Source of the DNA: a virus
Lineage: Duplodnaviria > Heunggongvirae > Uroviricota > Caudoviricetes
Reading direction: 5' to 3' (one strand)
DNA length: 36,337 nucleotides
IMG/VR virus record: IMGVR_UViG_2541047902_000001
The translations under genes were made by a program, and so were the position numbers. This document shows, piece after piece, positions 1-29,586 of the stretch (position 1 is its first letter; every line of letters starts with the position of its first letter). The notes under the pieces were generated by a model. That model saw nothing but the letters and a program-made list of their open reading frames with translations, had not been told where the DNA came from and made no database searches.

Positions 1-1284
1 TTACTTCTTCGCCTCTGCAACCACTTTGCTACCCACGCCGCGGTTATTGTATTCCCACATGCGGTTGTAGTTAGTGTCATTCAGATTGCGCTGTACTTCG
101 TCGTTATCATCAACGTTGCCAGTATTACCCGCAAACGGACGATTGGAAATCACCGCATCGGCCCACGGTTTCGCCGTGTTAAAACCTTCGTTGATGGCGC
201 TATCACGGATCACTACCTGACCGTTGGTATTGGCATCAACATCCAGCGAGCGGCCCAGTTGCGCCACGCCATCCCCGGAAGCATTGAAACGGCTGTTTAC
301 GGCGAGGAAACCGTAGTAAATGTTGGACAGCGTAGCCGGTGCAAACACATACGCTTCTTGCTGGGTACGGGAGTTCACCACGCGGAATTCGGTGTTATCG
401 AACACCACTGCGCCGCGACCAGAAACGATATCCACATCCCCTTCAATGTAGCTGTTAGTCACCAGGGTACGCGGCTGACGGTTGCTTTCCAGACGGTTTT
501 GCACACCGCTGTTGGTGACAAAGAAGGTATTCTGGCGACCGAGAATATTGACGTTATTGATCTGCACTTTGTCGCCATCAGTACGCAGTGCCACCGCCGG
601 ATGGTTACCCGCATCTACGCTATCGCCCAGTGTGTTTTCGATGGTCAGGTTTTGCAGTTGCAGGCCATTGTTTTGTGACCAGAAGACCGCAGAACAGAGC
701 ACGCCAATGCTGTCGCTGCGTTTGCTCTGGCAGCTATCGTACATATACCACGCTGGTTTACCCGGCATATATTTGCCGCGTGGGTTGACGTCGTGACGCC
801 AGTCGGCTGGGCTCATGCCCCCATCAAGGGAAAGCCCAATTTTCACATCAATCGGTTTTTCACCTGTACCGTACAGAGTAATTCCACCCGGAGCGGCAGG
901 GACATACACCGTTCCCTGATACTCACCAGGCATCACGGCAATATACTGGCGCTTGTTGGTACGCTTGATAATTGCCGCATCTACCGCCGCCTGAATCGTG
1001 GTATGCGTTACACCTTGAGTACCCGCCGGGCCGACAACAAAGTCAGGTTGTGCAGGCAGGGTAATCGGGGAAGGATTCCACGCTGCAGCACCTGGTGTCA
1101 GGGATGCAAAATAGTGTTGAGCATCGAAATTCTGCGCTTCTTTTGCCGACAGAATCGGGCGAGAAGAGGTACCAGGCGCGGTTTGATCAGAAGGACGTTG
1201 ATCGGGCGGTGTTGAGCTACAGGCGGTCAGCGTCACGCCAAAAGCCAATGCCAGCGCCAGACGGGAAACTGAAAATGTGTTCAC
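1..1284 (-). CDS. ybhC: Host outer-membrane lipoprotein YbhC (pectinesterase-family), flanking attB-lambda
   Basis: Complete 427-aa ORF with signal peptide and lipobox (LTAC); matches my recollection of E. coli YbhC; lies just outside the att core. Confidence 0.85.
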   Translation of the reverse strand: MNTFSVSRLALALAFGVTLTACSSTPPDQRPSDQTAPGTSSRPILSAKEAQNFDAQHYFASLTPGAAAWNPSPITLPAQPDFVVGPAGTQGVTHTTIQAAVDAAIIKRTNKRQYIAVMPGEYQGTVYVPAAPGGITLYGTGEKPIDVKIGLSLDGGMSPADWRHDVNPRGKYMPGKPAWYMYDSCQSKRSDSIGVLCSAVFWSQNNGLQLQNLTIENTLGDSVDAGNHPAVALRTDGDKVQINNVNILGRQNTFFVTNSGVQNRLESNRQPRTLVTNSYIEGDVDIVSGRGAVVFDNTEFRVVNSRTQQEAYVFAPATLSNIYYGFLAVNSRFNASGDGVAQLGRSLDVDANTNGQVVIRDSAINEGFNTAKPWADAVISNRPFAGNTGNVDDNDEVQRNLNDTNYNRMWEYNNRGVGSKVVAEAKK

Positions 1285-1330: not shown

Positions 1331-1418
1331 GCTTTTTTATACTAAGTTGGCATTATAAAAAAGCATTGCTTATCAATTTGTTGCAACGAACAGGTCACTA
1401 TCAGTCAAAATAAAATCA
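1331..1418. other. attL: attL: lambda att core GCTTTTTTATACTAA (1331-1345) plus P' arm with Int arm-type sites
   Basis: Exact 15-bp lambda core; downstream sequence matches the recalled lambda P' arm (GTTGGCATTATAAAAAAGCATTGCTTATCAATTTGTTGCAACGAACAGGTCACTATCAGTCAAAATAAAATCATTATTTGATTTCAATTTTGTCC). Confidence 0.9.
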
Positions 1419-2489
1419 TTATTTGATTTCAATTTTGTCCCACTCCCTGCCTCTGTCATCACGATACTGTGATGCCATGGTGTCCGACTTATGCCCGAGA
1501 AGATGTTGAGCAAACTTATCGCTTATCTGCTTCTCATAGAGTCTTGCAGACAAACTGCGCAACTCGTGAAAGGTAGGCGGATCCCCTTCGAAGGAAAGAC
1601 CTGATGCTTTTCGTGCGCGCATAAAATACCTTGATACTGTGCCGGATGAAAGCGGTTCACGACGAGTAGATGCAATTATGGTTTCTCCGTCAAGAATCTC
1701 TTTGCATTTATCAAGTGTTTCCTTCATTGATATTCCGAGAGCATCAACATGCAATGCTGTTGGGATGGCAATTTTTACGCCTGTTTTGCTTTGCTCGACA
1801 TAAAGATATCCATCTACGATATCAGACCACTTCATTTCGCATAAATCACCAACTCGTTGCCCGGTAACAACAGCCAGTTCCATTGCAAGTCTGAGCCAAC
1901 ATGGTGATGATTCTGCTGCTTGATAAATTTTCAGGTATTCGTCAGCCGTAAGTCTTGATCTCCTTACCTCTGATTTTGCTGCGCGAGTGGCAGCGACAGG
2001 GTTTGTTGTTATATGGCCTTCAGCTATTGCCTCTCGGAATGCATCGCTCAGTGTTGATCTGATTAACTTGGCTGACGCCGCCTTGCCCTCGTCTATGTAT
2101 CCATTGAGCATTGCCGCAATTTCTTTTGTGGTGATGTCTTCAAGTGGAGCATCAGGCAGCCCCCTCCTTATTGCTTTAATTTTGCTCATGTAATTTATGA
2201 GTGTCTTCTGCTTGATTCCTCTGCTGGCCAGGATTTTTTCGTAGCGATCAAGCCATGAATGTAACGTAACGGAATTATCACTGTTGATTCTCGCTGTCAG
2301 AGGCTTGTGTTTGTGTCCTGAAAATAACTCAATGTTGGCCTGTATGGCTTCAGTGATTGCGATTCGCCTGTCTCTGCCTAATCCAAACTCTTTACCCGTC
2401 CTTGGGTCCCTGTAGCAGTAATATCCATTGTTTCTTATATAAAGGTTAGGGGGTAAATCCCGGCGCTCATGACTTCGCCTTCTTCCCAT
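1419..2489 (-). CDS. int: Integrase (tyrosine recombinase), lambda Int
   Basis: 356-aa ORF matching recalled lambda Int nearly residue-for-residue; adjacent to attL. Confidence 0.97.
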   Translation of the reverse strand: MGRRRSHERRDLPPNLYIRNNGYYCYRDPRTGKEFGLGRDRRIAITEAIQANIELFSGHKHKPLTARINSDNSVTLHSWLDRYEKILASRGIKQKTLINYMSKIKAIRRGLPDAPLEDITTKEIAAMLNGYIDEGKAASAKLIRSTLSDAFREAIAEGHITTNPVAATRAAKSEVRRSRLTADEYLKIYQAAESSPCWLRLAMELAVVTGQRVGDLCEMKWSDIVDGYLYVEQSKTGVKIAIPTALHVDALGISMKETLDKCKEILDGETIIASTRREPLSSGTVSRYFMRARKASGLSFEGDPPTFHELRSLSARLYEKQISDKFAQHLLGHKSDTMASQYRDDRGREWDKIEIK

Positions 2490-2685
2490 TTCTGATCCTC
2501 TTCAAAAGGCTACCTGTTACTGGTCGATTTAAGTCAACCTTTACCGCTGATTCGTGGAACAGATATTCTCTTCCATCCTTAACCGGAGGAGGGAATATCC
2601 TGCATTCGCGCACCCATCGACGAACTGTTTCAAGGCTTCTTGGGCGTCGCTGGCGTGCGTTCCACTCCTGAAGTGTCAAGTACAT
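2467..2685 (-). CDS. xis: Excisionase, lambda Xis
   Basis: 72-aa ORF (MYLTLQEWNARQRRPRSLETVRRW...) matching lambda Xis; 23-nt overlap with the int start as in lambda. Confidence 0.95.
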   Translation of the reverse strand: MYLTLQEWNARQRRPRSLETVRRWVRECRIFPPPVKDGREYLFHESAVKVDLNRPVTGSLLKRIRNGKKAKS

Positions 2686-2711
2686 CGCAAAGTCTCCGCA
2701 ATTACACGCAA

Positions 2712-2733
2712 GAAAAAACCGCCATCAGGCGGC
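2712..2733 (-). terminator. Hairpin plus U-run on the minus strand just upstream of xis (terminator-like)
   Basis: Stem CCGCC/GGCGG (2719-2732) with an A6 run on plus = T6 on minus; function not established. Confidence 0.3.
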
Positions 2734-3134
2734 TTGGTGTTCTTTCAGTTCTTCAATTCGAATATTGGTTATGTCTGCATGTGCTATCTGCGCCCATATC
2801 ATCCAGTGGTCGTAGCAGTCGTTGATGTTCTCCGCTTCGATAACTCTGTTGAATGGCTCTCCATTCCATTCTCCTGTGACTCGGAAGTGCATTTATCATC
2901 GCCATAAAACAAAACCCGCCGTAGCGAGTTCAGATAAAAGAAATCCTCGTCAGTGCGAGGATGCTGTTCATTGCTGCTATACACTTTTTTGCTCTCAACG
3001 TAAGCGGTAGCCCATTCTGTTGGGTTGGTGCAGTTGCTTTTAGGAAATGCTATTTACCCCTTAAATGTCGGCTGAAAGAGCTAAAATCCATGCAAAAAAT
3101 TTACGCAATTTTGTGTATTATTGTGCAGTAAGTA

Positions 3135-3737
3135 ATGAGCTATTTTCTGCGCAAAAAATGGATGGTAAATTTGTCCGGGTCAGGAAAAATTTTATGGGCG
3201 CTAAACATGAAAAAAGATTCGTATCCTTATTTGATTTGCATGACAGTTTCAGGGCTGATCTTTATTTTCCTTTTCTTCTGGTGGCGGGCAGATATCTACA
3301 GGGTCACGTTTCTTAATCAGAGTATATCCCACTATTACATTCTGTTTAGCATGGGAATAGCTTTTCTGTTATCTCTGTTTTGGGTTAAGAAGGGGATAGT
3401 AAAACAAAGAGGCTGGAAGAGTCTGTCAGCATACCTTAAGGTTTATGCAGGGATGTGCATATTTGCAGGATTTTTTCTGATTATACCCCTTACGACACTA
3501 ACTTATTTTTTGCCTGGAGAGACATCGTCTTATGTTGCACCGTATCGGTATACTTCCGGTAGTTCAAAAAGTTGTTCTGGAGCTGAGGTGGATGACCCCG
3601 ATCTACATGAGAATATTCGCATTTGCTATCCGTATGGCAATTATGAGTACGATAATATTATCTATGTTGAAAAGAAAATTAATATATTAGGTGCGGTAGT
3701 GACATATGCACAGACCGCGCGTGATGATACTGAATGA
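3135..3737 (+). CDS. Hypothetical polytopic membrane protein; accessory gene antisense to the pL operon (ea8.5/ea22 slot)
   Basis: 200-aa ORF in an AT-rich segment; several hydrophobic helices then a hydrophilic C-terminal domain; alternative start at 3207 (MKKDSYPYL); no family recognised. Confidence 0.5.
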   Translation: MSYFLRKKWMVNLSGSGKILWALNMKKDSYPYLICMTVSGLIFIFLFFWWRADIYRVTFLNQSISHYYILFSMGIAFLLSLFWVKKGIVKQRGWKSLSAYLKVYAGMCIFAGFFLIIPLTTLTYFLPGETSSYVAPYRYTSGSSKSCSGAEVDDPDLHENIRICYPYGNYEYDNIIYVEKKINILGAVVTYAQTARDDTE

Positions 3738-3947
3738 TATAGTATATAGCGGGCAAGTTTTAGTTAATTTATCGAGGTAATATAATTTACCTCGACTCGT
3801 TTGTTCTGGTATTAATATTTCGCTTTACGACCGATTTTTATCTGATGATATCATGCGGTTTTCATATACTGACTTACTGTCTTTTCTCCGTTAGCGATTT
3901 TCTCCTGCTCAGCGATGATTTTATCTTTGGCTTCTAGTTAATTTCGC

Positions 3948-4169
3948 TCACTTCGAACCTCTCTGTTTACTGATAAGCTCCAGATCCTCCTGGCAACTTG
4001 CACAAGTCCGACAACCCTGAACGACCAGGCGTCTTCGTTCATCTATCGGATCGCCACACTCACAACAATGAGTGGCAGATATAGCCTGGTGGTTCAGGCG
4101 GCGCATTTTTATTGCTGTGTTGCGCTGTAATTCTTCAATTTCTGATGCTGAATCAATGATGTCTGCCAT
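3948..4169 (-). CDS. TraR/DksA-family C4 zinc-finger protein (lambda Orf73-like)
   Basis: 73-aa ORF with CxxC...CxxC motif (CCECGDPIDERRRLVVQGCRTCASCQ); position matches lambda orf73. Confidence 0.75.
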   Translation of the reverse strand: MADIIDSASEIEELQRNTAIKMRRLNHQAISATHCCECGDPIDERRRLVVQGCRTCASCQEDLELISKQRGSK

Positions 4170-4267
4170 CTTCCATTAATCCCTGAATTGTTGGTTAATA
4201 CGCTTGAGGGTGAATGCGAATAATAAAAAAGGAGCCTGTAGCTCCCTGATGATTTTGCTTTTCATGT

Positions 4268-4579
4268 TCATCGTTCCTTAAAGACGCCGTTTAACATGCC
4301 GATTGCCAGGCTTAAATGAGTCGGTGTGAATCCCATCAGCGTTACCGTTTCGCGGTGCTTCTTCAGTACGCTACGGCAAATGTCATCGACGTTTTTATCC
4401 GGAAACTGCTGTCTGGCTTTTTTGATTTCAGAATTAGCCTGACGGGCAATGCTGCGAAGGGCGTTTTCCTGCTGAGGTGTCATTGAACAAGTCCCATGTC
4501 GGCAAGCATAAGCACACAGAATATGAAGCCCGCTGCCAGAAAAATGCATTCCGTGGTTGTCATACCTGGTCTCTCTCAT
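4268..4579 (-). CDS. Hypothetical early protein in the lambda orf61 position (start uncertain; alternative start at 4483)
   Basis: 103-aa ORF between the orf73-like and orf63-like genes; no recognisable domain. Confidence 0.4.
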   Translation of the reverse strand: MRETRYDNHGMHFSGSGLHILCAYACRHGTCSMTPQQENALRSIARQANSEIKKARQQFPDKNVDDICRSVLKKHRETVTLMGFTPTHLSLAIGMLNGVFKER

Positions 4580-4751
4580 CTGCTTCTGCTTTCGCCACCA
4601 TCATTTCCAGCTTTTGTGAAAGGGATGCGGCTAACGTATGAAATTCTTCGTCTGTTTCTACTGGTATTGGCACAAACCTGACTCCAATTTGAGCGAGGCT
4701 ATGTGCCATCTCGATACTCGTTCTTAACTCAACGGGAGATGCTTTGTGCAT
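4560..4751 (-). CDS. Lambda Orf63-like protein
   Basis: 63-aa ORF with the same length and position as lambda orf63. Confidence 0.6.
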   Translation of the reverse strand: MHKASPVELRTSIEMAHSLAQIGVRFVPIPVETDEEFHTLAASLSQKLEMMVAKAEADERDQV

Positions 4752-4906
4752 ACAGCTCCCCGTTTATTATTTATCTCCTCAGCCAGCCGCTGTGCTTTCA
4801 GGGGATTTCGGATAACAGAAAGGCCGGGAAATACCCAGCCTCGCTTCGTAACGGAGTAGACGAAAGTGATCGTGCCTACGCGGATATTATCGTGAGGATG
4901 TTTCAT
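4724..4906 (-). CDS. Lambda Orf60a-like protein
   Basis: ORF immediately downstream of exo on the leftward transcript; 60 aa if started at MKHPH. Confidence 0.55.
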
Positions 4907-5583
4907 CGCCATTGCTCCCCAAATACAAAACCAATTTCAGCCAGTGCCTCGTCCATTTTTTCGATGAACTCCGGCACCATCTCGTCAAAACTCGCTATAT
5001 ACTTTTCATTCCGCTCAATCACGACATAATGCAGGCCTTCACGCTTCATGCGCGGGTCATAGTTGGCAAAGTACCAGGCATCTTTTCGCGTCACCCACAT
5101 GCTGTACTGCACCTGGGCCATGTAAGCCGACTTTATGGCCTCGAAACCACCGAGCCGGAATTTCATGAAATCCCGGGAGGTAAACGGGCATTTCAGCTCA
5201 AGGCCATTGCCGTCACTGCATAAACCATCGGGAGAGCAGGCGGTGCGCATACTTTCGTCGCGATAGATGATCGGGGATTCAATAACATTTACGCCGGAAG
5301 TGAACTCAAACAGAGTTCTGGCGTCGTTCTCGTACTGTTTTCCCCATGCCAGCGCCTTAGCATTAACTTCCGGAGCCACACCGGTGCAAACCTCAGCCAG
5401 CAGGGTGTGGAAGTAGGACATTTTCATGTCAGGCCACTTCTTTCCTGAGCGGGGCTTGGCTATCACGTTGTGAACTTCTGAAGCGGTGATGACGCCGAGC
5501 CGTAATTTGTGCCATGCATCATCCCCCTGTTCGACAGCTCTCACGTCGATCCCGGTACGCTGCAGGATAATGTCCGGTGTCAT
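4903..5583 (-). CDS. exo: Exonuclease (Red alpha)
   Basis: 226-aa ORF matching lambda Exo. Confidence 0.97.
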
Positions 5584-6365
5584 GCTGCCACCTTCTGCTC
5601 AGTGGCTTTCTGTTTCAGGAATCCAAGAGCTTTCACTGCTTCGGCCTGTGTCAGTTCTGACGATGCGCGAATGTCGCGGCGAAATATCTGGGAACAGAGC
5701 GGCAATAAGTCGTCATTCCATGTTTTATCCAGGGCGATCAGCAGAGTGTTAATCTCCTGCATGGTTTCATCGTTAACCGGAGTGATGTCGCGTTCCGGCT
5801 GACGTTCTGCAGTGTATGCGGTATTTTCGACAATGCGCTCGGCTTCATCCTTGTCATAGATACCAGCAAATCCGAAGGCGAGACGGGCACACTGAATCAT
5901 GGCTTTATGCCGTAACATCCGTTTGGGATGCGACTGCCACGGCCCCGTGATTTCTCTGCCTTCGCGGGTTTTGAATGGTTCGCGGCGGCATTCATCCATC
6001 CATTCGGTAACGCAGATCGGATGATTGCGGTCTTTGCGGTAAATCCGGCATGTGCAGGATTCGTTGTCCTGTTCAAAGTCCATGCCGTCAAACTGCTGGT
6101 TTTCGTTGATGATGCGGGACCAGCCATCAACGCCCACCACCGGAACGATGCCGTTCTGCTTATCAGGGAAGGCGTAAATTTCTTTCGTCCACGGATTAAG
6201 ACCGTACTGGTTGGCGACGATCAGCAATGCGATGAACTGCGCATCGCTGGCATCACCTTTAAATGCCGTCTGGCGAAGAGTGGTGATCAGTTCCTGTGGG
6301 TCGACAGAATCCATGCCGACACGTTCAGCCAGCTTCCCAGCCAGCGTTGCGAGTGCTGTACTCAT
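5580..6365 (-). CDS. bet: Recombinase Bet (Red beta)
   Basis: 261-aa ORF matching lambda Bet; 4-nt overlap with exo. Confidence 0.97.
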
Positions 6366-7912: not shown

Positions 7913-8055
7913 ATATCACCTTAAATAGTGGATTGCGGTAGTAAAGATTGTGCCTGTCTTTTAACCACATCAGGCTCGGTGGTTCTCGTGTACCCCTACA
8001 GCGAGAAATCGGATAAACTCTATTCACCCCTACAGAGAGCAAAAGAGAAACGCCG

Positions 8056-8637
8056 ATGAACAACTCATGGTGGCAGGAACTAATGCATTTTTTCCTGCAA
8101 GGAATGACACTTAAACAGTTGATTCATATGCTAATCATCCTGATCATATTGATTATTGTTATGCCGGTAAGCGTAAAAGAATGGATAAACCTGCATAATC
8201 CAGAAATCCTTCCTCATTACTGGATGTATTACATCCTGTTGTTTTGCGTTAGCTATGTGCTTAACGGCGTTGTTAATTCCGCTTATCACGCTGTGACTGA
8301 AAGAATTGAGGTATTCGTTGCTCAGAAGCGCAAATCTAAAGAAGAAAAATATGTGCAAGATTTGTTTGATTCGTTAACTCTTGGAGAAAGAGCGTATTTG
8401 GCATTCGCTGTAGCCGCTAATAACCAGCTACAAACGGAAAAGGGAGCTCATGAATCAATTTCATTGCTCAAAAAAGGACTCCTCGTTCGAAGGCCTCCTG
8501 CTGTTGGATATCCTGATACCGACCGTTTTGTTATTCCTGAAAGCTATAGACATGAGTGCTACATTCGGTTTGCCGGGAAGGCAGACAGCCTTATGGATGA
8601 ACTTATCGCTCAGGATAAGCATGGCAAAAACAAGTAA
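8056..8637 (+). CDS. sieB: Superinfection exclusion protein B
   Basis: 193-aa membrane protein in the lambda sieB position, transcribed antisense to the pL operon. Confidence 0.85.
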   Translation: MNNSWWQELMHFFLQGMTLKQLIHMLIILIILIIVMPVSVKEWINLHNPEILPHYWMYYILLFCVSYVLNGVVNSAYHAVTERIEVFVAQKRKSKEEKYVQDLFDSLTLGERAYLAFAVAANNQLQTEKGAHESISLLKKGLLVRRPPAVGYPDTDRFVIPESYRHECYIRFAGKADSLMDELIAQDKHGKNK

Positions 8638-8653
8638 TTAGCAAATGAATTTA

Positions 8654-8965
8654 TCATCTCGCCGTCAGTTGTTTTGATTTCCGGTAGCCTGCCGCGTAAA
8701 TAGCTACGTTTGGCAGGCAAACACTTCCACTGCATTCATCTACTTTCTTGCAGCGAAGGCTTCCGAGTGATATTGCTTTTTCAGAAAGGCTTAACCGCTT
8801 TCTCGGGTCTTCCTGAACAGGTTCCTCACTGTCTGTGCCGAAGATCGAATCGATGATGTTGCAGATGGAATCACGCTCGATGGCCAGCTTTCTGCGCCGC
8901 TCATGACGGCGAGTTTTGGCATTTCCTGCAAATGTTGATTTTCCGTACACGATTACCGTCATGAT
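8654..8965 (-). CDS. N: Antitermination protein N, P22 gene-24 type
   Basis: Arginine-rich motif GNAKTRRHERRRKLAIER (the P22 N boxB-binding peptide) at residues 13-30 when started at MTVIVYGK; SD GAGGA upstream. Confidence 0.85.
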   Translation of the reverse strand: MMTVIVYGKSTFAGNAKTRRHERRRKLAIERDSICNIIDSIFGTDSEEPVQEDPRKRLSLSEKAISLGSLRCKKVDECSGSVCLPNVAIYAAGYRKSKQLTAR

Positions 8966-9080
8966 GTTTTCCTCATGTGAAATGGCTTTGGTGGTGATGC
9001 GCCAGATGCTGATCTTCTGGTTGCTGTCGTTACTGCTGCAATTCACATCACCCCAAACCCATCTCGTTTGGTATCTGTTC

Positions 9081-9404: not shown

Positions 9405-10304
9405 TTATTTGATTATTTCTTTTATAAAGACTTCTTTCGGTTGGTATTTTTTATCTGATGATTTGAGCTGGTACGTTATTGTTATATCAGCACGTACAGC
9501 AAATTTACCTGCAAAATCTGATGGGTTTACGTTGGGGCCAAGAACCATATTTACTCTTCGATCTATTAATCCAGGGATAACAGCAGCCCAACCTTTCTCT
9601 GGATTGTCGAGGTCTAATGCACGGATTTCAACATCAACATCAAAATGATCCTGAGTATATGACTCTGGTGTGAAGACAACTTCAGTTGGGGCTTTTTTAA
9701 TGGTTTCAGCGGGAATGGTCACTGTACCACCCCCTGTACCTATGACCATCGTAGATCCTTCGTCTGCCCTAGCTGGGGCAAGCGTCTTAATGGAACTTTT
9801 GGCAAGAGTCTTCTTATTGGTTACCGTGCTTTCTATGATTGCTTGAAGACGGTCAGGTGAAATATTAGCCTCACCGGCACCAATATTGATGATTGTATTG
9901 TTATTTGCTTCAAAGTGGGAGGTGTTGCTTGGAGCCATAGCCTTAGTTGCTAGAACTAAGCCATATCCAACCAGACCAATAACAACAGCACCAACGAGAG
10001 CGTTTCTCATTTTCCCATTTCCGATCTTTGCATGAGCGCCAGCAAGAAACTTGTCCATTTCTTCTTGGCTACCAAAGAGGAGTTTAATAACAATATCTTC
10101 ATAAAGGCTTCCTGCTTCTAATCGCGCAACATGCACCGATATATCAAGGATATTAGCCCCTGTCAGTTCCTGCAAAACACCTTCTGATTGTTTTGCGATG
10201 GCCTCCCACCCTTGAAGGGAGGTAATCACATCTTTGATGCTTACAGGTTCTTTAGTTGAATAATATATGTTTTCGGTAAAGGTTAAAGATAATTCTTGGG
10301 ACAT
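9405..10304 (-). CDS. Unknown 299-aa single-pass membrane protein in the rexAB position (candidate exclusion / abortive-infection gene)
   Basis: ORF downstream of cI on the same strand; SD GAGGG; central hydrophobic helix (about residues 120-143, NALVGAVVIGLVGYGLVLATKAMA); low GC; followed by a terminator; no family recognised. Confidence 0.7.
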   Translation of the reverse strand: MSQELSLTFTENIYYSTKEPVSIKDVITSLQGWEAIAKQSEGVLQELTGANILDISVHVARLEAGSLYEDIVIKLLFGSQEEMDKFLAGAHAKIGNGKMRNALVGAVVIGLVGYGLVLATKAMAPSNTSHFEANNNTIINIGAGEANISPDRLQAIIESTVTNKKTLAKSSIKTLAPARADEGSTMVIGTGGGTVTIPAETIKKAPTEVVFTPESYTQDHFDVDVEIRALDLDNPEKGWAAVIPGLIDRRVNMVLGPNVNPSDFAGKFAVRADITITYQLKSSDKKYQPKEVFIKEIIK

Positions 10305-10433: not shown

Positions 10434-11141
10434 TCATGAACTTTTCAGCCATTCCCTGGCCTCGATGTCATCTAGGTGGCGAGATTGCTTCAGAATACCA
10501 GCTACATACTCCACCTTTGCTACTTGATGATAAGGCAACGTTATTGGCCTGTGGTCTTGGTTGATGCTTGTAAATTGGTATTCTCCGTCTCTGTCATAGC
10601 CAAGAACCTTGATCATGTTGTGCCCTTCAATGGTTCTGACAAACACCTCATCACCTGGGAATACTTTGGTGTTAGGCTCAATGAGTACATATTCTCCTGA
10701 TTTTATTCTGGGCCACATGCTGTCTCCTTTTACACGAAGACCAAAGGCATCTGGATCATCGCTATAAATCTTGAGCCACCCATCGCGCTCTTCGGTCATC
10801 TCGATGGCACCATCAACACCAAGAATTGCCTCACCAACCACGCGCACTAACCCTTTTTTTAATTTGCCAACAATTGAAAAAGTATCTTCATCATTCGCTC
10901 CATTTAACGAAGTGCCGTGCTGAAGCCAAACAACATCAACGTTTAGAAATTTCGCAAGCGCATTCATTTTTTCCTGGCGTGGTAAAGACTCAGCATTAAA
11001 CCATTTGCTAACGCCTTTGGACGAAAGAGAAAGGGCACGGGCTATGGCCATTCCCCTACCATGTTCATCAAGACCAGCTTCTTTACAGGCTTGCGCTAGC
11101 CGCTGGGCGAATTCTTTGCGCACTTTTTCATTCTGAACCAT
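10434..11141 (-). CDS. cI: CI-type prophage repressor (HTH plus LexA/S24-like self-cleaving domain), non-lambda immunity
   Basis: 235-aa ORF divergent from cro; C-terminal GDSMWP...K pattern typical of S24 peptidase-fold repressors; sequence unlike lambda CI or P22 C2. Confidence 0.8.
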   Translation of the reverse strand: MVQNEKVRKEFAQRLAQACKEAGLDEHGRGMAIARALSLSSKGVSKWFNAESLPRQEKMNALAKFLNVDVVWLQHGTSLNGANDEDTFSIVGKLKKGLVRVVGEAILGVDGAIEMTEERDGWLKIYSDDPDAFGLRVKGDSMWPRIKSGEYVLIEPNTKVFPGDEVFVRTIEGHNMIKVLGYDRDGEYQFTSINQDHRPITLPYHQVAKVEYVAGILKQSRHLDDIEAREWLKSS

Positions 11142-13722: not shown

Positions 13723-16700
13723 ATGACCACTGTGAATAAAAAGTTAAAAAAAACTGCATCTGGCGCGATTACATGGTCAGTAATTGTTACCCAGATATTA
13801 TCTCCAGTTTCTCTTTCTTTGATTCCGGCAAACAGTTTTGCATCGTCTGATAATAAAGATGTTACGCAAATTTATGCTAGCGATGAGCGTGCAAATAAAG
13901 TGGCCTCATTTGCAGTAAGTGCAGGTCAGAGTCTGGCGAATAATAATGCAAGTAGTTTTGCTGTAAATACTTTATCAACTCAGGCGACAAAAGAGGTCGT
14001 CGATTGGTTGCAACAATATGGCAATGCGCGCATCAAGCTTAATGTCGATAATTCTTTTTCCTTGAAGGATTCATCATTCGACTTTTTATATCCATGGCTG
14101 GATACTCAGGATTATGTGCTATTCAGTCAAACATCACTACATCGTACTGATGACCGTAATCAGACCAATATTGGTTTGGGGATTCGTCATTTCACTCCTG
14201 ATAATGCAATGTTGGGTGCGAATGTTTTCTACGATTATGATTTAAGTCGCAGCCACTCTCGCGCAGGTTTTGGGGTTGAGTACTGGAGAGATTATTTCAG
14301 GCTTGGTGTAAATACCTATTTTGGTTTATCTGACTGGAAGGACAGTCGGGATATTGATGATTATCTGGAAAGACCCGCAAATGGCTGGGATTTTTCTGCT
14401 GAAGGATGGCTACCTGCTTATCCGCAATTAGGGGCATCTATTCAGTTTGAAAAATATTATGGTAAAAATGTCGGATTATTTGGAAGCGATAATCTGCAGG
14501 AAAACCCTTACGCAGTTACTGGGGGAATTTCTTATACACCAGTTCCTCTGATTAAGTTTTCTGCACAGCATAAGCAAGGACAGAGCAACGTTCACGATAC
14601 AACCTTTGGTGTTGAGTTTAATTACCGCCCAGGCGTTTCCCTTGCTGAACAGCTTAGCAGTGACAATGTTGCAGTTATGCGAGAAGTCCAGAACCGGCGT
14701 TATGATTTTGTTGAACGAAATAACAACATTGTTCTGGAGTACAAGAAGAAGCATGCACTGAAAATCAGCTTACCAGAGTCTGTTCAGGGGGATGGCGAAT
14801 CAATCATCCCTGTAACACTGACAATCAACAATGCCAGTGGTGGTATCAAGTCTGTACAGTGGAATGATAGTGTATTCACTGCGGCTGGCGGTAAGATCAG
14901 TGGAAATGGCACATCATGGCAGGTCACTTTACCGGCTTATAAAAGCGAAGGTGTAAATTCGTGGAATGTTGGAGCCACGGTCCAGGATAATAGAGGCAAC
15001 GTTTCCAACTATGCGGTGATGAATATTAGCGTTATTAATAGTGGTGTCTCGACAGCGGATTCTTCTTTTATGTTGGATGGAGATTCATCTCCGACGATCT
15101 CTGCTGATGGTCAATCCACTCATCCAATAGTATTAAGCCTGAAAGACAGTAACGGTAAGGCATTAACCGGACTGGCTGATGACATTGAAATGTCAGTGGA
15201 ATTTACTGCGGATAGCAATAGTGCTCGACAGCGTGAAACGGTAACTGCCCCGTCATTAGGCGCGGTAGAGGAAATCTCTGCTGGTGTATATCGCTCTGTT
15301 CTGACTGCTGGTTCGCAGGCTGGCACAGTACGTGTAACAGCAAAAGTTCAGGGAAAAACCTTTACTTTGAATATTAAGCAGGCAGCCGTTATTGATAGTG
15401 ATGTCTCGACAGCGGATTCTTCTTTTACGTTGGATGGTGATTCGTCTCCGACGATCTCTGCTGATGGTCAATCCACTCATCCAATAGTATTAAGCCTGAA
15501 AGACAGTAACGGTAAGGCATTAACCGGACTGGCTGATGACATTGAAATGTCAGTGGAATTTACTGCGGATAGCAATAGTGCTCGACAGCGTGAAACGGTA
15601 ACTGCCCCGTCATTAGGCGCGGTAGAGGAAATCTCTGCTGGTGTATATCGCTCTGTTCTGACTGCTGGTTCGCAGGCTGGTACGGTACGTGTAACTGCAA
15701 AAGTAATGGATAAAACATTTACTCTCAGTATTAAGCAAACAGCAGCAACAGAACCTGATTCTGAGGTCAGTGCTGTTTTAACCGCTGCACCAGCAGAACA
15801 GGTAGTTGGTTACAATATCAATCTACAACTGGCAGTGAAGGATTCACAAGGAAATGCAATCACTGGTGATAACACTCTGAGCTTTTATGCTCTTAACCAG
15901 GCAGAAGGAGTCGAGTTTGGGGCTGTAACGGAAAAAGACGGTGTCTATAGCGCGACAGTAACTTCAAAACGAGCTGGTAAGATTCGGATCGGTGTTAAAT
16001 CGGGTAGTCACAATTTCTCAGGTATTGAGAAAGAAATCTCCTTTATTGAAGATCGAACACAGTTCGCATTCTCTCGTATTGAAGCCAGTAAAAATAATGC
16101 ATTGGCTGACGGCAAACAACAGAATACGGTGACTTTAAGCCTTGCAGATCGTTTCGGCAATGTTGTGCCCGGTTATGCTGTTACGCTGTCCTTACCTGCG
16201 GGGGTAACTCAAGTTGGTGGTGAACATGCTGTGTCAACTGACGAAAACGGTAATGCTGTTTTTGCGTTAATAAGCTCCACTCCGGGTTCTTACGTGATTA
16301 AAGCTCATGCTGGTTCTCAGATGTCTACTGAGTTAACAGTAACCTTTGCATCAAATATGATCGGAGCTTCACTGTCACTGACGCCTGGAAACAGTAGCTT
16401 AATTTCCAATATTCCTGCTAATGGTAAGGATGCTGCGGTATTGAATGTGCAACTGACAAATACGAATGCGTCGGTCAATGGACAGAAGATTCAGCTCATC
16501 ACCTCATCTGAAAGATTGTCTGTACCGACAAATATCGTGACTGATTCAACAGGGCATGTTTCCGTACCACTTACAACGGTGAGAGCTGGTGAGTATACGG
16601 TGGCTGCACGAGTGACTGACGGTTCCCATAGTGTGGAGTCTGGCAGCGTTAAGTTAACTTTTGTACCAGATGCTGCTTCCGCAGAACTTACTATGAGTAC

Positions 16701-17631
16701 ATCAAAACAGCAGATTGTGGCCGATGGTAGTGAAAGTGCAACAGTGGACATTCAGTTGGTTGATGCCAATAACAATGCGTTTACAGGCGATGTGGATTTA
16801 ACGGTTACACCATCGACGGGAGCATCATTGACCAGTAGTAAACTGCAGTTGGATGCTCATGGACAGGCAACAACGCAGTTCACAGCATCGAAATCAGGCC
16901 AGTACACAATTCAGGCTGAGTATGTTCTAGATGGGAAACGTATAACCGCAAGCAAAAATATTGATGCCGTGACGGATGTGAAGGAGGCTGTGTTGGAGAT
17001 CACATCATCTGCATCTTCGGCTGTAGTGAGCGATACCAACAATCTGATATTTACGTTACTGTTGAAAAGTACGTCAGGCGAAGTATTAAGTGGTCGAGTA
17101 TTGAATATCAAGGCATCTGGGCCGTCCAAATATGGTGCGTTGGTGGTTGATAAAACCACTGTAACGACTGATGAGTATGGTCTGGCTACGGTAAGCGTAC
17201 ATGGTCGAACGGCTGGTTCGTATAAATTAACGGCGACCTTAGATGAACTTGGCAGTGATGTTAGTGAGGTGAAGTCATTCTCTCTGTATGCTGATGAGGC
17301 AAATGGAGTATTGACACTGCATAAAGATGGAGGCTATGACACAGATGATGGTACTCCAGTGGGGGTTTATGCCCGATTTGTTGACCATTTCGGCAATCCG
17401 TTATCTGGTACGGTTGAGTTTTCTGCTGGTAGTGAAGATAGTCCAAACTCTCAACGGGTTAAAATGGAGCCTGCTACAGTAACGTTACACTGGACAGGTA
17501 ATGCAGCCTCGGAGTTCAGCACCTATGAAAGCGGTTATCACTGGATTAAGGCCAAAATAACGAACAGCAAAAATACATATGAGAAAACAATAAGGACTTA
17601 TGTTGTAAAGCTCCCTGAAAAGGATAGTTAA
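13723..17631 (+). CDS. Invasin/intimin-family inverse autotransporter adhesin with bacterial Ig-like repeats (cargo in the ren slot)
   Basis: 1302-aa ORF; signal-like N-terminus; beta-barrel motifs typical of invasin/intimin beta-domains; long run of Ig-like repeats; AT-rich upstream region; own terminator. Confidence 0.8.
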   Translation: MTTVNKKLKKTASGAITWSVIVTQILSPVSLSLIPANSFASSDNKDVTQIYASDERANKVASFAVSAGQSLANNNASSFAVNTLSTQATKEVVDWLQQYGNARIKLNVDNSFSLKDSSFDFLYPWLDTQDYVLFSQTSLHRTDDRNQTNIGLGIRHFTPDNAMLGANVFYDYDLSRSHSRAGFGVEYWRDYFRLGVNTYFGLSDWKDSRDIDDYLERPANGWDFSAEGWLPAYPQLGASIQFEKYYGKNVGLFGSDNLQENPYAVTGGISYTPVPLIKFSAQHKQGQSNVHDTTFGVEFNYRPGVSLAEQLSSDNVAVMREVQNRRYDFVERNNNIVLEYKKKHALKISLPESVQGDGESIIPVTLTINNASGGIKSVQWNDSVFTAAGGKISGNGTSWQVTLPAYKSEGVNSWNVGATVQDNRGNVSNYAVMNISVINSGVSTADSSFMLDGDSSPTISADGQSTHPIVLSLKDSNGKALTGLADDIEMSVEFTADSNSARQRETVTAPSLGAVEEISAGVYRSVLTAGSQAGTVRVTAKVQGKTFTLNIKQAAVIDSDVSTADSSFTLDGDSSPTISADGQSTHPIVLSLKDSNGKALTGLADDIEMSVEFTADSNSARQRETVTAPSLGAVEEISAGVYRSVLTAGSQAGTVRVTAKVMDKTFTLSIKQTAATEPDSEVSAVLTAAPAEQVVGYNINLQLAVKDSQGNAITGDNTLSFYALNQAEGVEFGAVTEKDGVYSATVTSKRAGKIRIGVKSGSHNFSGIEKEISFIEDRTQFAFSRIEASKNNALADGKQQNTVTLSLADRFGNVVPGYAVTLSLPAGVTQVGGEHAVSTDENGNAVFALISSTPGSYVIKAHAGSQMSTELTVTFASNMIGASLSLTPGNSSLISNIPANGKDAAVLNVQLTNTNASVNGQKIQLITSSERLSVPTNIVTDSTGHVSVPLTTVRAGEYTVAARVTDGSHSVESGSVKLTFVPDAASAELTMSTSKQQIVADGSESATVDIQLVDANNNAFTGDVDLTVTPSTGASLTSSKLQLDAHGQATTQFTASKSGQYTIQAEYVLDGKRITASKNIDAVTDVKEAVLEITSSASSAVVSDTNNLIFTLLLKSTSGEVLSGRVLNIKASGPSKYGALVVDKTTVTTDEYGLATVSVHGRTAGSYKLTATLDELGSDVSEVKSFSLYADEANGVLTLHKDGGYDTDDGTPVGVYARFVDHFGNPLSGTVEFSAGSEDSPNSQRVKMEPATVTLHWTGNAASEFSTYESGYHWIKAKITNSKNTYEKTIRTYVVKLPEKDS
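15040..15753. repeat. Tandem duplication (2 x 357 bp) encoding two nearly identical 119-aa Ig-like domains inside the adhesin gene
   Basis: About 300 bp repeated almost perfectly with a 357-bp period (15046 vs 15403). Confidence 0.9.
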
Positions 17632-19953: not shown

Positions 19954-20478
19954 TTATTGTTTAACCCATAATAATTCATTGACATTGAATCCCAACTTTT
20001 GAGCGGTTCGCACATAGTCTGCTTTTACTTTATCTGGAATAGTTGGGGTCCTTGCCAGAATCCATAGGTATTCTCTGTTCGGACCACTGACAAGAGCATA
20101 CTTATACTCATCATCCAGTTTGATTACATTATAGCCACCATAGAAGGGGCCAAAAAACGAAACCTTCAACGCTGCAGTTTTAGTATCTCCAGTAAAGTAT
20201 GCTTTACCTTCGCTCTCGCTCCATTTATTTTTCGTTGGATCGTATCCACGGTTAAGTACACGAATCCCTCCGTCGTTCCGTTTTCCATAAGTAGCGCTGA
20301 CCTGTTCCAGACCACGTTCGAACCGGTTCTCGAGGCGAGCTATTTCATACCACTTTCCGAGGTAGCGGTTGGCGTCAAAATTTGTAATCGGCTGCACACC
20401 TTTAGGTGGTGTCGGGGCCTTACATGCTATAAGAGTGAAAGAGAGTGCAATGCCAGTCAACACAGGCCATAACTTCAT
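19954..20478 (-). CDS. Bacterial lipocalin (Blc-like outer-membrane lipoprotein)
   Basis: 174-aa ORF with lipobox LIAC and conserved lipocalin motifs (NFDANRYLGKWYEIARLENRFERG..., FFGPFYGGYNVI); opposite orientation to the late operon. Confidence 0.8.
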   Translation of the reverse strand: MKLWPVLTGIALSFTLIACKAPTPPKGVQPITNFDANRYLGKWYEIARLENRFERGLEQVSATYGKRNDGGIRVLNRGYDPTKNKWSESEGKAYFTGDTKTAALKVSFFGPFYGGYNVIKLDDEYKYALVSGPNREYLWILARTPTIPDKVKADYVRTAQKLGFNVNELLWVKQ

Positions 20479-20670: not shown

Positions 20671-21630
20671 ATGATAAAAAAACCTGTGATTGGAATCAGC
20701 GGTTGTCTGGCCGGTTCTGCTGTTCGTTTTGATGGTGGTCACAAAAGAGCTGACTTTTTAATGGACAAATTAGTGGAATGGGTAACATTCAGACCAGTAT
20801 GTCCGGAAATGGCTATAGGGCTGCCAGTTCCGCGTCCTGCTCTACGTCTTGTGCGCTCGACGCAAGGAAATATACGGATGTGTTTCAGCCACGACCAGAA
20901 TGAGGATGTGACAGAGAGAATGACAGAGTTTAGTCGTTCTTATATGGACAAATTAAAGGATGTATCGGGGTTTGTGGTTTGTGCTAAATCTCCCAGCTGT
21001 GGCATGGAGCGCGTGCGTGTCTATGATGAAAATGGTAATCGAGGTCGTAAAGATGGAGTGGGACTATTTACGAGCACTTTGATGGAAAAGTTTTCCTGGC
21101 TACCGGTTGAAGAGGATGGGCGATTACATGATCCAGTGCTTCGTGAGAATTTTGTTGAAAGAGTTTTTGCTTTGCATGAGCTCAATCACCTTTACAAGGA
21201 GAAATTATCAAGAAGAGAGTTATTAGCTTTTCATAGTCGTTATAAGCTTCAGTTGTTGGCGCATAGTCAGGCAGGCTATAAAGATATGGGACCATTTGTG
21301 GCTGCAATACACGAGTGGGCGGACCTTGAATCATACTTTGAGGTGTATCGTGATAAGCTGATGGCGATTCTCAGAAAACCTGCATCACGTAAAAATCACA
21401 CGAATGTGATGATGCATATACAGGGGTATTTTAGTAACTACTTAAGTACACGCCAGCGTAAAGAGTTGAGCGAGGTTATACTTAACTATCGTTCTGGCAC
21501 ATTACCTCTTCTTGCGCCGTTGACTCTGCTGAAGCATTATCTGGGTGAGTATCCTAATGATTACTTGCTTACACAGAATTACTTCGATCCCTATCCGGAC
21601 GAACTGGCTCTAAGACTGATGGTAAATTAA
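20671..21630 (+). CDS. DUF523/DUF1722-family protein (YbgA/TudS-like, Cys-rich)
   Basis: 319-aa ORF; N-terminal Cys positions GISGCLAG, RPVCPEM, CAKSPSCGMERV resemble the DUF523 fold; C-terminal extension. Confidence 0.55.
   Translation: MIKKPVIGISGCLAGSAVRFDGGHKRADFLMDKLVEWVTFRPVCPEMAIGLPVPRPALRLVRSTQGNIRMCFSHDQNEDVTERMTEFSRSYMDKLKDVSGFVVCAKSPSCGMERVRVYDENGNRGRKDGVGLFTSTLMEKFSWLPVEEDGRLHDPVLRENFVERVFALHELNHLYKEKLSRRELLAFHSRYKLQLLAHSQAGYKDMGPFVAAIHEWADLESYFEVYRDKLMAILRKPASRKNHTNVMMHIQGYFSNYLSTRQRKELSEVILNYRSGTLPLLAPLTLLKHYLGEYPNDYLLTQNYFDPYPDELALRLMVN

Positions 21631-25885: not shown

Positions 25886-29566
<3,681 letters not shown>

Positions 29567-29586
<20 letters not shown>

What the first reader, a model, noticed from the sequence alone, without database searches (positions are those of the whole stretch)
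2965..3930. Opposite-strand membrane-protein cassette replacing ea8.5/ea22 between xis and the orf73-like gene
Lambda-like sequence flanks an AT-rich block of about 1 kb carrying a 200-aa polytopic membrane protein gene (3135-3737), with several hydrophobic helices and a soluble C-terminal domain, transcribed antisense to the pL operon. That orientation mirrors sieB and allows expression in the lysogen from its own promoter. No family was recognised.
Basis: partly seen in the sequence, partly recalled or inferred. Interest (0 to 1): 0.6.

Follow-up and report, generated by a model that had tools for sequence, protein, structure and literature searches.

The report
Uncharacterised membrane-protein moron of phage 434
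A self-contained, AT-rich gene cassette in this lambda-like prophage encodes a small inner-membrane protein of an unnamed family that also sits in the defence hotspot of P2-like prophages; it is probably a prophage-expressed envelope factor, perhaps one that blocks other phages, but its function has never been tested.

Summary
Window 2963-3935 (38% GC; flanks 46-50%) replaces lambda 29356-30379, which holds ea8.5 and ea22. It carries a + strand gene antisense to the pL operon.

The true start is almost certainly Met25 (ATG 3207), giving 176 aa rather than 200. The protein has three transmembrane helices and a roughly 75-aa periplasmic small beta-barrel. Two cysteines are the only invariant residues of the family.

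The block is 98.7-99.7% identical in phages 434, mEp332 and 2B8. It is present in 905 of 5426 complete E. coli genomes.

Pfam, NCBIfam, PADLOC, PDB and fold searches give no family. The only match is a PHROG of unknown function.

Diverged homologues (47-79% identity) lie in P2-like prophages, always between portal gpQ and replication gene gpA, the old/tin anti-phage hotspot. Others are chromosomal in Enterobacter, Klebsiella and Hafnia.

A conserved extended -10, tandem TTGTGCA decamers upstream and a terminator hairpin downstream make it a textbook moron.

The best guess is a lysogen-expressed envelope protein that excludes superinfecting phages at genome entry. That function is inferred only. 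A non-defence envelope role is nearly as likely.

The parts
2963..3935 (.). AT-rich replacement block (38.1% GC) that takes the place of lambda 29356-30379 (ea8.5 plus ea22)
   Evidence: blastn against lambda; GC content; 98.7-99.7% identical block in phages 434, mEp332 and 2B8; present at 80% coverage or more in 905 of 5426 complete E. coli genomes
3207..3737 (+). Gene proper: a 176-aa inner-membrane protein. Predicted topology is N-terminus in the cytoplasm, three TM helices, and a periplasmic C-terminal five-stranded beta-barrel with an invariant Cys pair (C147 and C164 in 200-aa numbering).
   Evidence: Conserved start and invariant cysteines; AlphaFold pLDDT 82 for the full length and 88 for the C-domain; hydropathy and positive-inside counts; dN/dS 0.09-0.16
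3135..3206 (+). It is probably not translated and holds promoter and 5' UTR sequence.
   Evidence: A TAG interrupts it in E. coli copy L014, and the ATG is absent in the Salmonella copies; pLDDT about 50; phage 434 and some RefSeq annotations use shorter starts
3100..3128 (+). Two to three 10-bp-phased direct repeats of TTGTGCA type (TTTACGCAAT / TTTGTGTATT / ATTGTGCAG), a candidate binding site for an unknown, probably host-encoded, regulator. The 434 annotators read part of it as a CII-like TTGY-N6-TTGY site.
   Evidence: Three to four cleaner copies are conserved at the same position in P2-like copies with only 51-78% protein identity; TTGTG-N5-TTGTG occurs once in the window against 0.09 expected; 434 annotation
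3163..3171 (+). Candidate extended -10 promoter element TGgTAAATT. The predicted transcript start is near 3178, leaving a 5' UTR of about 29 nt.
   Evidence: TGnTA...T is invariant, 35-39 nt before the ATG, in seven contexts down to 51% protein identity, although synonymous sites are saturated. The simple consensus scan did not report it because the -35 is poor. This is inferred, not mapped.
3772..3805 (+). Intrinsic-terminator-like hairpin (9-bp stem, -12.9 kcal/mol) followed by CTCGTTTGTTCT, ending the + strand unit
   Evidence: z = -2.96 against shuffles; a similar hairpin follows the 78%-identical copy in L103; a G-U-compatible change is seen in L014
3850..3951 (-). Pseudogene remnant of an ea22-type gene. 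The first 5 codons (VSEIN, shared with lambda ea22) run into a stop. An out-of-frame piece then reads LEAKDKIIAEQEKIAN..., corresponding to about residue 84 onward of a short Ead/Ea22-like allele.
   Evidence: Translations; the L103 neighbour is a 127-aa Ead/Ea22-like protein (Pfam 2.7e-29) that starts MSEINYQALRE and contains LETKDNRIAELEKIAT
2912..2962 (-). Two tandem terminator-like hairpins on the pL-transcript strand at the left edge of the block (t-L4 in the 1990 phage 434 record). They are shared with lambda.
   Evidence: -20.9 kcal/mol, z = -3.8
2961..3131 (+). 56-aa ORF annotated in phage 434 as a 'putative membrane protein' (CPT_434_35). It is doubtful as a gene.
   Evidence: Annotated in 434 and mEp332 but not called by PGAP; absent upstream of the Salmonella copies; no family

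Best explanation
The block is a moron, an independently transcribed accessory unit inserted in the xis-exo (b/ea) region of a lambda-like prophage.

It consists of three parts:
- a weak sigma-70 promoter with an extended -10, preceded by tandem TTGTGCA decamers that probably bind a host regulator;
- one gene (3207-3737);
- a hairpin terminator.

The unit points against pL. It can therefore be transcribed when pL is repressed in the lysogen, and it would be swamped by converging N-antiterminated transcription during lytic growth.

The product is a 176-aa inner-membrane protein. Its N-terminus is in the cytoplasm and it has three transmembrane helices. A short strand from the first periplasmic loop packs onto a C-terminal five-stranded small beta-barrel. 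The barrel is held by a Cys-x16-Cys pair, presumably a disulfide, and is displayed on the periplasmic face.

The most likely job is superinfection exclusion. The tethered periplasmic domain would bind a component of an incoming phage's genome-delivery apparatus (tape-measure or ejection proteins), or the inner-membrane host factor that the apparatus uses. Entry of foreign phage DNA would be blocked without killing the cell.

Shown here: the anatomy, the conservation, the distribution and the hotspot context.

Inferred: use of the promoter, the topology, the disulfide, and the whole of the function.
For: Moron anatomy:
- Foreign GC content.
- Precise replacement relative to lambda.
- Terminator hairpin.
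- Conserved TGnTA...T and tandem decamers upstream in contexts where synonymous sites are saturated.
- Owen et al. 2020 (PMC7067206) describe orientation antisense to the lytic genes as characteristic of moron loci.

Real, constrained protein:
- dN/dS 0.09-0.16.
- The two cysteines are the only invariant residues across 31 family members.

Topology:
- Three hydrophobic peaks. K+R residues are concentrated at the N-terminus and in loop 2 (4 K/R and no D/E in this protein), and the C-domain is acidic.
- AlphaFold pairs loop-1 strand 58-60 with the C-domain.
- An invariant Cys pair fits an oxidising compartment.

Accessory or defence context:
- Of 80 IMG/VR loci, 65 are lambdoid, all in the same slot with 95% or more protein identity. 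The other 15 are P2-like at 47-79% identity. Fourteen of those lie between gpQ and gpA, and one locus shows gpA but ends before a portal gene.
- Independent look-ups in Salmonella and Klebsiella michiganensis give the same P2-like position. There the gene lies beside a YafO toxin gene or an NB-ARC/STAND NTPase gene.
- That locus is the documented old/tin anti-phage hotspot (PMC9122126).

Retention in decayed prophages:
- The gene is intact in O157:H7 CP-933K, where exo and bet are disrupted.
- It is intact in a KplE1-like remnant where every neighbour is a pseudogene.
- This suggests a benefit to the host.

Precedent: P22 SieA is a 162-164-aa inner-membrane protein with three TM segments that blocks DNA delivery (PMC10883804).
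Against: - There are no expression data and no phenotype.
- No sequence or profile similarity to SieA (BLASTP E = 12; hhalign probability 0.5%), to SieB (Pfam), or to any PADLOC or function-annotated PHROG family.
- The family has syntenic, apparently vertically inherited chromosomal orthologues in at least six Enterobacter species.
- It has singleton chromosomal copies in Klebsiella, Citrobacter and Pseudescherichia, and in Hafnia, where it lies next to a TolA-domain lipoprotein gene, an Ail/Lom-type outer-membrane protein gene and phoPQ. This is not what a dedicated anti-phage gene must look like.
- A conserved regulator-binding array suggests signal-dependent rather than constitutive expression.
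- Hotspot residence is guilt by association.
Confidence: 0.38

Rival explanations
1. Lysogenic-conversion or housekeeping envelope factor unrelated to phage defence. The membrane-tethered periplasmic barrel would modulate or protect the cell envelope. Examples are immunity against a periplasm-acting bacteriocin or T6SS effector, tolerance to antimicrobial peptides, or tuning of a membrane sensor or the Tol-Pal machinery. Expression would be under a host signal-responsive regulator. Phages carry the gene because it raises lysogen fitness, as lom and bor do.
For: - Syntenic chromosomal orthologues across Enterobacter species next to a diguanylate cyclase gene and a LysR gene.
- The Hafnia copy lies beside a TolA C-terminal-domain lipoprotein gene, an Ail/Lom/PagC-type outer-membrane protein gene and phoPQ.
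- The Citrobacter copy lies beside an RstB-like kinase gene.
- Tandem 10-bp-phased direct repeats upstream resemble response-regulator sites (the resemblance is from my own knowledge).
- No PADLOC hit.
- This window's prophage carries other non-defence morons, an intimin/invasin-type adhesin and a lipocalin.
Against: - No toxin or effector gene is consistently adjacent.
- The chromosomal neighbourhoods differ between genera, so no pathway link emerges.
- All diverged phage-borne copies sit precisely in the P2 hotspot, which is enriched for anti-phage cargo.
Confidence: 0.3
2. Abortive-infection membrane effector. The protein would sit inert in the inner membrane and, when triggered by an infecting phage, depolarise or permeabilise the membrane. 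This is functionally like RexB or SieB, or like the transmembrane effectors of CBASS, retron and TIR systems.
For: - It is a polytopic membrane protein in a defence hotspot.
- Rousset et al. note that transmembrane proteins in such loci are usually suicide effectors (PMC9122126).
- It has the same orientation as sieB.
- There are weak BFVD resemblances to '2TM beta-strand-rich effector' and NfeD-like proteins (E = 0.2-0.7).
Against: - It is a single gene with no sensor partner in the lambdoid context.
- The conserved, disulfide-bonded domain faces the periplasm, where it cannot sense cytoplasmic infection cues.
- The BFVD hits are not significant.
- Constitutive chromosomal orthologues under purifying selection argue against a latent toxin.
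Confidence: 0.12
3. A phage developmental gene that functionally replaces ea8.5/ea22 in the lysis-lysogeny decision.
For: It occupies the exo-xis region, whose genes influence lysogenisation and induction (PMC7093339 and PMC3824215, listed).
Against: - It lies on the opposite strand to the pL operon.
- It is a membrane protein with a periplasmic domain.
- The same gene lives in P2-like hotspots and on chromosomes that have no lambdoid circuitry.
- An ea22-type gene was originally present next to it and has since decayed.
Confidence: 0.05
4. Not a functional gene: a chance ORF in AT-rich junk left by recombination.
For: No annotated family, and the start codon is ambiguous.
Against: - dN/dS about 0.1.
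- 61 clusters at 50% identity, from Enterobacterales plus a few Pseudomonas, share one architecture and an invariant Cys pair.
- The AlphaFold model is confident.
Confidence: 0.02

Closest known systems
P22 SieA (superinfection exclusion A)
   Same: A prophage-expressed single gene with its own promoter. Similar size (162-164 aa against 176 aa). An inner-membrane protein with three predicted TM segments. Several very divergent sequence types share one topology (PMC10883804).
   Different: No detectable sequence or profile similarity. The conserved SieA motif FxRYPxEAxxFNK is predicted to be cytoplasmic, and that motif is absent here. Here the conserved part is a periplasmic Cys-x16-Cys beta-barrel. 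The genomic positions differ (immI region against xis-exo or the P2 cos hotspot).
Lambda/P22 SieB
   Same: Encoded inside the pL operon on the opposite strand. AT-rich (this window's sieB has GC 0.405; the new gene has 0.39). A membrane-associated prophage product.
   Different: No match to Pfam SieB, although the window's own sieB matches at 2.5e-22. SieB acts as an abortive-infection protein from the cytoplasmic side, whereas this protein's conserved domain is periplasmic.
HK97 gp15 moron (YebO-like superinfection exclusion protein)
   Same: A textbook moron (promoter, gene, terminator) that encodes an inner-membrane protein with a chromosomal homologue family. It blocks genome injection (Cumby et al., cited; annotation).
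   Different: gp15 is 62 aa with a single TM and sits inside the tail-gene operon. There is no sequence relation. The function of the present gene is untested.
Cargo of the P2 gpQ-gpA (old/tin) hotspot
   Same: Diverged family members occupy exactly this hotspot in P2-like prophages of Salmonella, Klebsiella and E. coli. The hotspot is defined in PMC9122126.
   Different: The gene is not among the systems recognised by PADLOC. Its anti-phage activity is unknown. In this window it lies in a lambdoid phage, not a P2-like one.
DUF1093 / OB-fold and cold-shock-like small beta-barrels

Membership tests
Moron (autonomous accessory unit in a phage genome) | Present between genes that are adjacent or differently filled in close relatives | tested here: met
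   Replaces lambda 29356-30379 with 97-99% identical flanks. The same slot holds other cargo in Stx and P22-like phages, where homology stops at about window 2988.
Moron (autonomous accessory unit in a phage genome) | Nucleotide composition differs from the surrounding phage genes | tested here: met
   GC 0.381 against 0.459 and 0.503
Moron (autonomous accessory unit in a phage genome) | Own terminator | tested here: met
   Hairpin at 3772-3795 plus a T-rich tail, -12.9 kcal/mol, z = -2.96
Moron (autonomous accessory unit in a phage genome) | Own promoter | tested here: inconclusive
   The consensus scan finds none upstream of the gene. A conserved extended -10 (TGnTAAATT, 3163-3171) and tandem decamers are seen by phylogenetic footprinting. 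No transcript start has been mapped.
Moron (autonomous accessory unit in a phage genome) | Expressed from the repressed prophage | not testable with these tools
   Needs RNA-seq or 5'-RACE on a lysogen
SieB (Pfam PF14163) | Match to the SieB profile | tested here: not met
   No Pfam hit at E <= 1. The window's genuine sieB (8056-8637) scores 2.5e-22.
P22 SieA family | Sequence or profile similarity, including the FxRYPxEAxxFNK motif | tested here: not met
   BLASTP E = 12; hhalign probability 0.5%; motif absent from alignment A6
P22 SieA family | Inner-membrane protein with three TM segments, about 160-175 aa | tested here: met
   (prediction only); SieA description in PMC10883804
P22 SieA family | Blocks DNA delivery by superinfecting phage | not testable with these tools
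   Requires phage challenge and DNA-entry assays
Known anti-phage defence systems (PADLOC-DB v2) | Match to any of the 5027 defence-protein models | tested here: not met
   0 families at E <= 1
MliC/PliC membrane-bound lysozyme inhibitors (considered because S-x-S-G-A resembles their motif as I recall it) | Pfam MliC match or the 8-stranded barrel fold | tested here: not met
PHROG phrog_1416 | Profile match | tested here: met
   E = 7e-51, but only over residues 113-200, and the family has no known function. Short database entries of this kind are frameshifted or truncated copies.

The most novel reading that the evidence does not exclude
This is the founding member of an unrecognised family of inner-membrane superinfection-exclusion proteins with three TM helices and a disulfide-bonded periplasmic small barrel. 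The family is shared between the two classic accessory hotspots of temperate coliphages, the lambdoid xis-exo region and the P2 gpQ-gpA locus, and it has been domesticated on Enterobacter and Hafnia chromosomes. It would block phage genome delivery in the periplasm. Its expression would be controlled by a host regulator that binds tandem TTGTGCA decamers, which would make exclusion conditional on an environmental signal.
Probability: 0.25. Interest if true: 0.65.

Novelty: new member of a known kind. Interest (0 to 1): 0.45.

Why it matters
Phage 434 is one of the founding model phages. This gene has been visible in its sequence since 1990 as 'ORF-22+' and is still annotated only as 'putative membrane protein'.

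The same cassette is present in about one in six complete E. coli genomes, including O157:H7 and Shigella sonnei. It survives intact in decayed prophages.

If it excludes phages, it would be a common determinant of phage host range, which matters for phage therapy and for typing. No current defence-finder would detect it. It would also link the lambdoid exo-xis region to the P2 defence hotspot as exchange partners.

If instead it is an envelope-fitness factor, it would be a widespread lysogenic-conversion gene under host-signal control.

Either way the test is cheap: one clone and a phage panel.

Tried and rejected

2. Homology to P22 SieA. Rejected.

4. Profile search against PDB sequences found nothing below E = 0.6.

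5. The exhaustive HMM search of 1.84 billion representatives found only 61 clusters, all with the same architecture or fragments of it. The one large hit (P0124, a 3074-aa repeat protein) is a spurious low-complexity Cys-motif match.

6. Short 'C-domain only' proteins and the 90-aa PHROG profile are frameshifted or truncated copies, not a separate architecture.

7. Rfam finds no RNA family in 2700-4200.

8. The 56-aa upstream ORF (2961-3131) was judged doubtful.

10. Looking for a consistent chromosomal neighbour showed that the contexts differ by genus. The TolA-domain lipoprotein neighbour was seen in Hafnia only.

11. The CII-site reading of the upstream repeats by the 434 annotators was considered. 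The same repeats are conserved in P2-like prophages, which as far as I know encode no CII homologue, so a host regulator is more likely.
Full report
WHAT IS THERE

The window is a lambda-like prophage integrated at the lambda attachment site. The left end reads as follows:
- ybhC at 1-1284 (-)
- int at 1419-2489 (-)
- xis at 2467-2685 (-)
- orf55 at 2725-2892 (-)
- the block in question
- a TraR/DksA-type zinc-finger gene, 'orf73', at 3948-4169 (-)
- exo at 4903-5583 (-) and bet at 5580-6365 (-)

blastn against lambda aligns window 1331-2962 with lambda 27724-29355 (98.9%) and window 3936-5655 with lambda 30380-32100 (97.3%). So 973 bp (2963-3935) stand where lambda has 1024 bp carrying ea8.5 and ea22. 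The block is 38.1% G+C. The sequence to its left is 45.9% and the sequence to its right is 50.3%.

THE GENE

The + strand ORF 3135-3737 (200 aa) is real, but the start is almost certainly the ATG at 3207 (Met25), giving 176 aa.
- Every diverged homologue begins there with MK(K/N)xSY.
- One E. coli copy has a TAG inside the 24-codon extension, and the Salmonella copies lack ATG3135.
- The extension is modelled with pLDDT of about 50.
- Both candidate promoters lie downstream of ATG3135.

The gene is under purifying selection. dN/dS is 0.09 against a 96.6%-identical E. coli copy (nucleotide identity) and 0.10-0.16 against Salmonella copies whose synonymous sites are saturated.

THE PROTEIN

AlphaFold2 with a 23-sequence alignment gives pLDDT 82. 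The model (200-aa numbering) has:
- helices at 30-53, 62-85 and 94-125
- a short strand at 58-60
- five strands between 129 and 195

The C-terminal 81 residues modelled alone give pLDDT 88 and the same five strands. Hydropathy shows three peaks. Lys and Arg cluster at the N-terminus and in the loop between helices 2 and 3 (four K/R and no D/E). The C-terminal domain is acidic, with 12 D/E against 6 K/R. By the positive-inside rule the N-terminus and loop 2 are cytoplasmic, and loop 1 and the C-domain are periplasmic. This agrees with the model packing the loop-1 strand onto the C-domain.

Across 31 family members down to 17% identity, the only invariant residues are two cysteines spaced C-x16-C (C147 and C164). 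The spacing varies by one residue in a few distant members. I read this pair as a periplasmic disulfide. Topology and disulfide are inferences.

NO KNOWN FAMILY

- Pfam gives nothing (best E = 0.18, far below cut-off), NCBIfam gives nothing and PADLOC gives nothing.
- PHROGs gives phrog_1416, of unknown function, over residues 113-200 only. Short database entries of that kind are frameshifted or truncated copies.
- A profile search of PDB sequences finds nothing.
- I noticed that the invariant S-C-S-G-A resembles the MliC/PliC lysozyme-inhibitor motif as I remember it. Neither Pfam nor the fold search supports that idea, so I drop it.
- P22 SieA is similar in size and has three TM segments (PMC10883804), but it shows no sequence or profile similarity.

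WHERE ELSE IT OCCURS

The whole block is 98.7-99.7% identical in phage 434, mEp332 and 2B8. In the 2022 phage 434 genome the gene is CPT_434_36, 'putative membrane protein'. In the 1990 fragment M60848 its first 22 codons are 'ORF-22+'.

It is present at 80% coverage or more in 905 of 5426 complete E. coli genomes.
- These include O157:H7, where it is intact in the decayed CP-933K prophage at ybhC (exo is split by an IS element and bet is truncated).
- In a KplE1-like remnant it is the only intact gene among pseudogenes.
- Shigella sonnei also carries it.

An exhaustive HMM search of 1.84 billion representative proteins finds only 61 clusters. Those that carry a source name are from Enterobacterales, with one Pseudomonas cluster, and every name given is 'hypothetical protein' or 'uncharacterised protein'.

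A scan of IMG/VR returned 80 loci.
- Sixty-five are lambdoid, with the near-identical allele in the same slot.
- Fifteen are P2-like, at 47-79% identity. Fourteen of these lie between the portal gene Q and the replication gene A. One locus shows gpA but ends before a portal gene.

Independent look-ups give the same P2-like position for two Salmonella alleles and for a Klebsiella michiganensis allele. In those loci the gene lies beside a YafO toxin gene or an NB-ARC/STAND NTPase gene. That locus is the old/tin hotspot, which Rousset et al. showed to be a reservoir of anti-phage systems (PMC9122126). The diversity therefore resides in P2-like phages, and the lambdoid allele looks like a single recent acquisition.

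The family is not exclusively phage-borne.
- At least six Enterobacter species carry it at one syntenic chromosomal site next to a diguanylate cyclase gene. Family identity between species is 63-97%.
- Klebsiella, Citrobacter and Pseudescherichia have singleton copies in unrelated neighbourhoods.
- The Cedecea copy is followed by an integrase fragment.
- In Hafnia alvei it is followed by a lipoprotein with a TolA C-terminal domain, an Ail/Lom-type outer-membrane protein gene and phoPQ.

HOW THE CASSETTE IS BUILT

Downstream of the stop codon is a 9-bp-stem hairpin (3772-3795, -12.9 kcal/mol, z = -3) followed by a T-rich tail. A similar hairpin follows the 78%-identical copy in a P2-like element.

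Upstream, the simple consensus scan finds no promoter. Comparing seven contexts down to 51% protein identity shows two conserved non-coding features, although synonymous sites are saturated.
- An invariant TGnTA...T lies 35-39 nt before the ATG. In the window it is TGgTAAATT at 3163-3171, an extended -10.
- Just upstream are three to four direct repeats of ATTGTGCA(G/A)T in 10-bp phase. The window copy at 3100-3128 is degenerate.

The 434 annotators read part of the repeats as a CII-like site. The repeats are equally conserved in P2-like prophages, so a host regulator seems more likely. Their phasing resembles response-regulator sites, and the decamer is reminiscent of the TorR box. Both resemblances are from memory and untested.

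The right end of the block is not junk. The first five codons of ea22 (VSEIN) are kept and run into a stop. An out-of-frame stretch then reads LEAKDKIIAEQEKIAN. This matches LETKDNRIAELEKIAT in a 127-aa Ead/Ea22-like gene that lies convergent to the family gene in the P2-like element L103. The cassette therefore arrived, or once existed, as 'membrane gene plus convergent short ea22 allele', probably by recombination within the conserved ea22 5' end. The ea22 allele has since suffered an internal deletion.

HOW IT MOST LIKELY WORKS

Shown here:
- It is a compositionally foreign unit with a terminator, on the strand opposite pL.
- It carries conserved promoter-like and operator-like elements.
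- It encodes a constrained small membrane protein.
- It recurs in the accessory hotspots of two unrelated temperate phage families.
- It is retained intact in decayed prophages.

Inferred: it is transcribed in the lysogen while pL is off, and it is interfered with by converging pL transcription in lytic growth. The protein displays a disulfide-bonded barrel on the periplasmic face of the inner membrane.

I think superinfection exclusion at the genome-entry step is the most likely function. Functionally this resembles P22 SieA or HK97 gp15. My confidence is about 0.38.

A non-defence envelope role is nearly as likely, at about 0.30. The reasons are the chromosomal orthologues, the envelope-gene neighbourhood in Hafnia and the apparent signal-dependent regulation.

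An abortive-infection effector (0.12) is less attractive, because the conserved domain faces away from the cytoplasm and no sensor partner is present. A role in the lambda lysis-lysogeny circuit (0.05) is less attractive still.

NOVELTY AND VERDICT

The sequence itself is long known and widely deposited, but nobody has named the family or tested the gene. Searches by accession number, locus tag and topic found nothing.

As a kind of thing, a prophage moron encoding a small envelope protein, it is ordinary. As a protein family it is unannotated and has a distinctive architecture. I file it as a new member of a known kind. Interest is moderate (0.45). It is common, it sits in a model phage and in pathogens, it is invisible to defence-finders, and the decisive experiment is simple. 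Nothing here is yet surprising, however, and the function is unproven.

Noticed in passing
window 9405-10304 (-): A 299-aa ORF between the cI-like repressor (10434-11141, -) and N/pL, in the position of lambda rexAB. It has no Pfam or PADLOC family (only a weak DUF1206 hit, E = 0.007). It is a second unannotated candidate for a lysogen-expressed gene.
   Followed up: partly
window 13723-17631 (+): A 1302-aa inverse autotransporter (IAT_beta 1e-100, plus Big_1 and Invasin_D3 repeats; intimin/invasin-type adhesin) encoded immediately after replication gene P. It is a large virulence-type moron in the nin region.
   Followed up: partly
window 19954-20478 (-), 20671-21630 (+), 22125-22706 (+): Further accessory genes in the late-regulatory region: a lipocalin (Blc-like) on the opposite strand, a 2-thiouracil desulfurase/DUF1722 protein, and an AraC-family regulator.
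   Followed up: partly
window 8056-8637 (+): A genuine sieB homologue (Pfam SieB, 2.5e-22), antisense to pL and AT-rich (GC 0.405), next to N (8654-9046, -). The prophage therefore already carries one classic exclusion gene in the same orientation as the cassette.
   Followed up: yes
window 3850-3951 (-); L103 8685-9068 (-): An internally deleted ea22-type pseudogene lies at the right edge of the block. An intact 127-aa Ead/Ea22-like gene sits convergent to the family gene in a P2-like element that also carries ParM/StbB partition genes. This suggests exchange between P2-like and lambdoid phages through ea22 homology.
   Followed up: partly
L005 about 5880-5915; L109 about 7955-8000; window 3100-3128: Three to four tandem 10-bp-phased ATTGTGCA(G/A)T repeats are conserved upstream of family genes in unrelated phage backgrounds. 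The binding protein is unknown. The decamer resembles the TorR box as I recall it, and one E. coli copy lies in a KplE1-like remnant beside torI.
   Followed up: partly
L038 7571-7975 (+) (Hafnia alvei): A 134-aa lipoprotein (LVGC lipobox) with a TolA C-terminal domain lies 64 nt downstream of the Hafnia family member. An Ail/Lom-type outer-membrane protein gene and phoPQ follow. A link to Tol-Pal or to the envelope is possible and was not pursued.
   Followed up: no
L020 3281-6623 (-) (Klebsiella michiganensis P2-like prophage): A 790-aa NB-ARC/STAND NTPase gene and a 279-aa gene with no family share the gpQ-gpA hotspot with the family member. They are a likely Avs/NLR-type defence candidate that PADLOC v2 does not recognise.
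   Followed up: no
window 2961-3131 (+): A 56-aa ORF annotated as a 'putative membrane protein' in phages 434 and mEp332. PGAP does not call it and it is not conserved outside the near-identical copies. It is probably not a gene.
   Followed up: yes
L013 6002-8663 (E. coli O157:H7 CP-933K): In O157:H7 the prophage carrying the cassette is defective: IS1203 splits exo, and bet is truncated and fused to the nin region. The membrane gene, orf73 and int-xis remain intact.
   Followed up: partly
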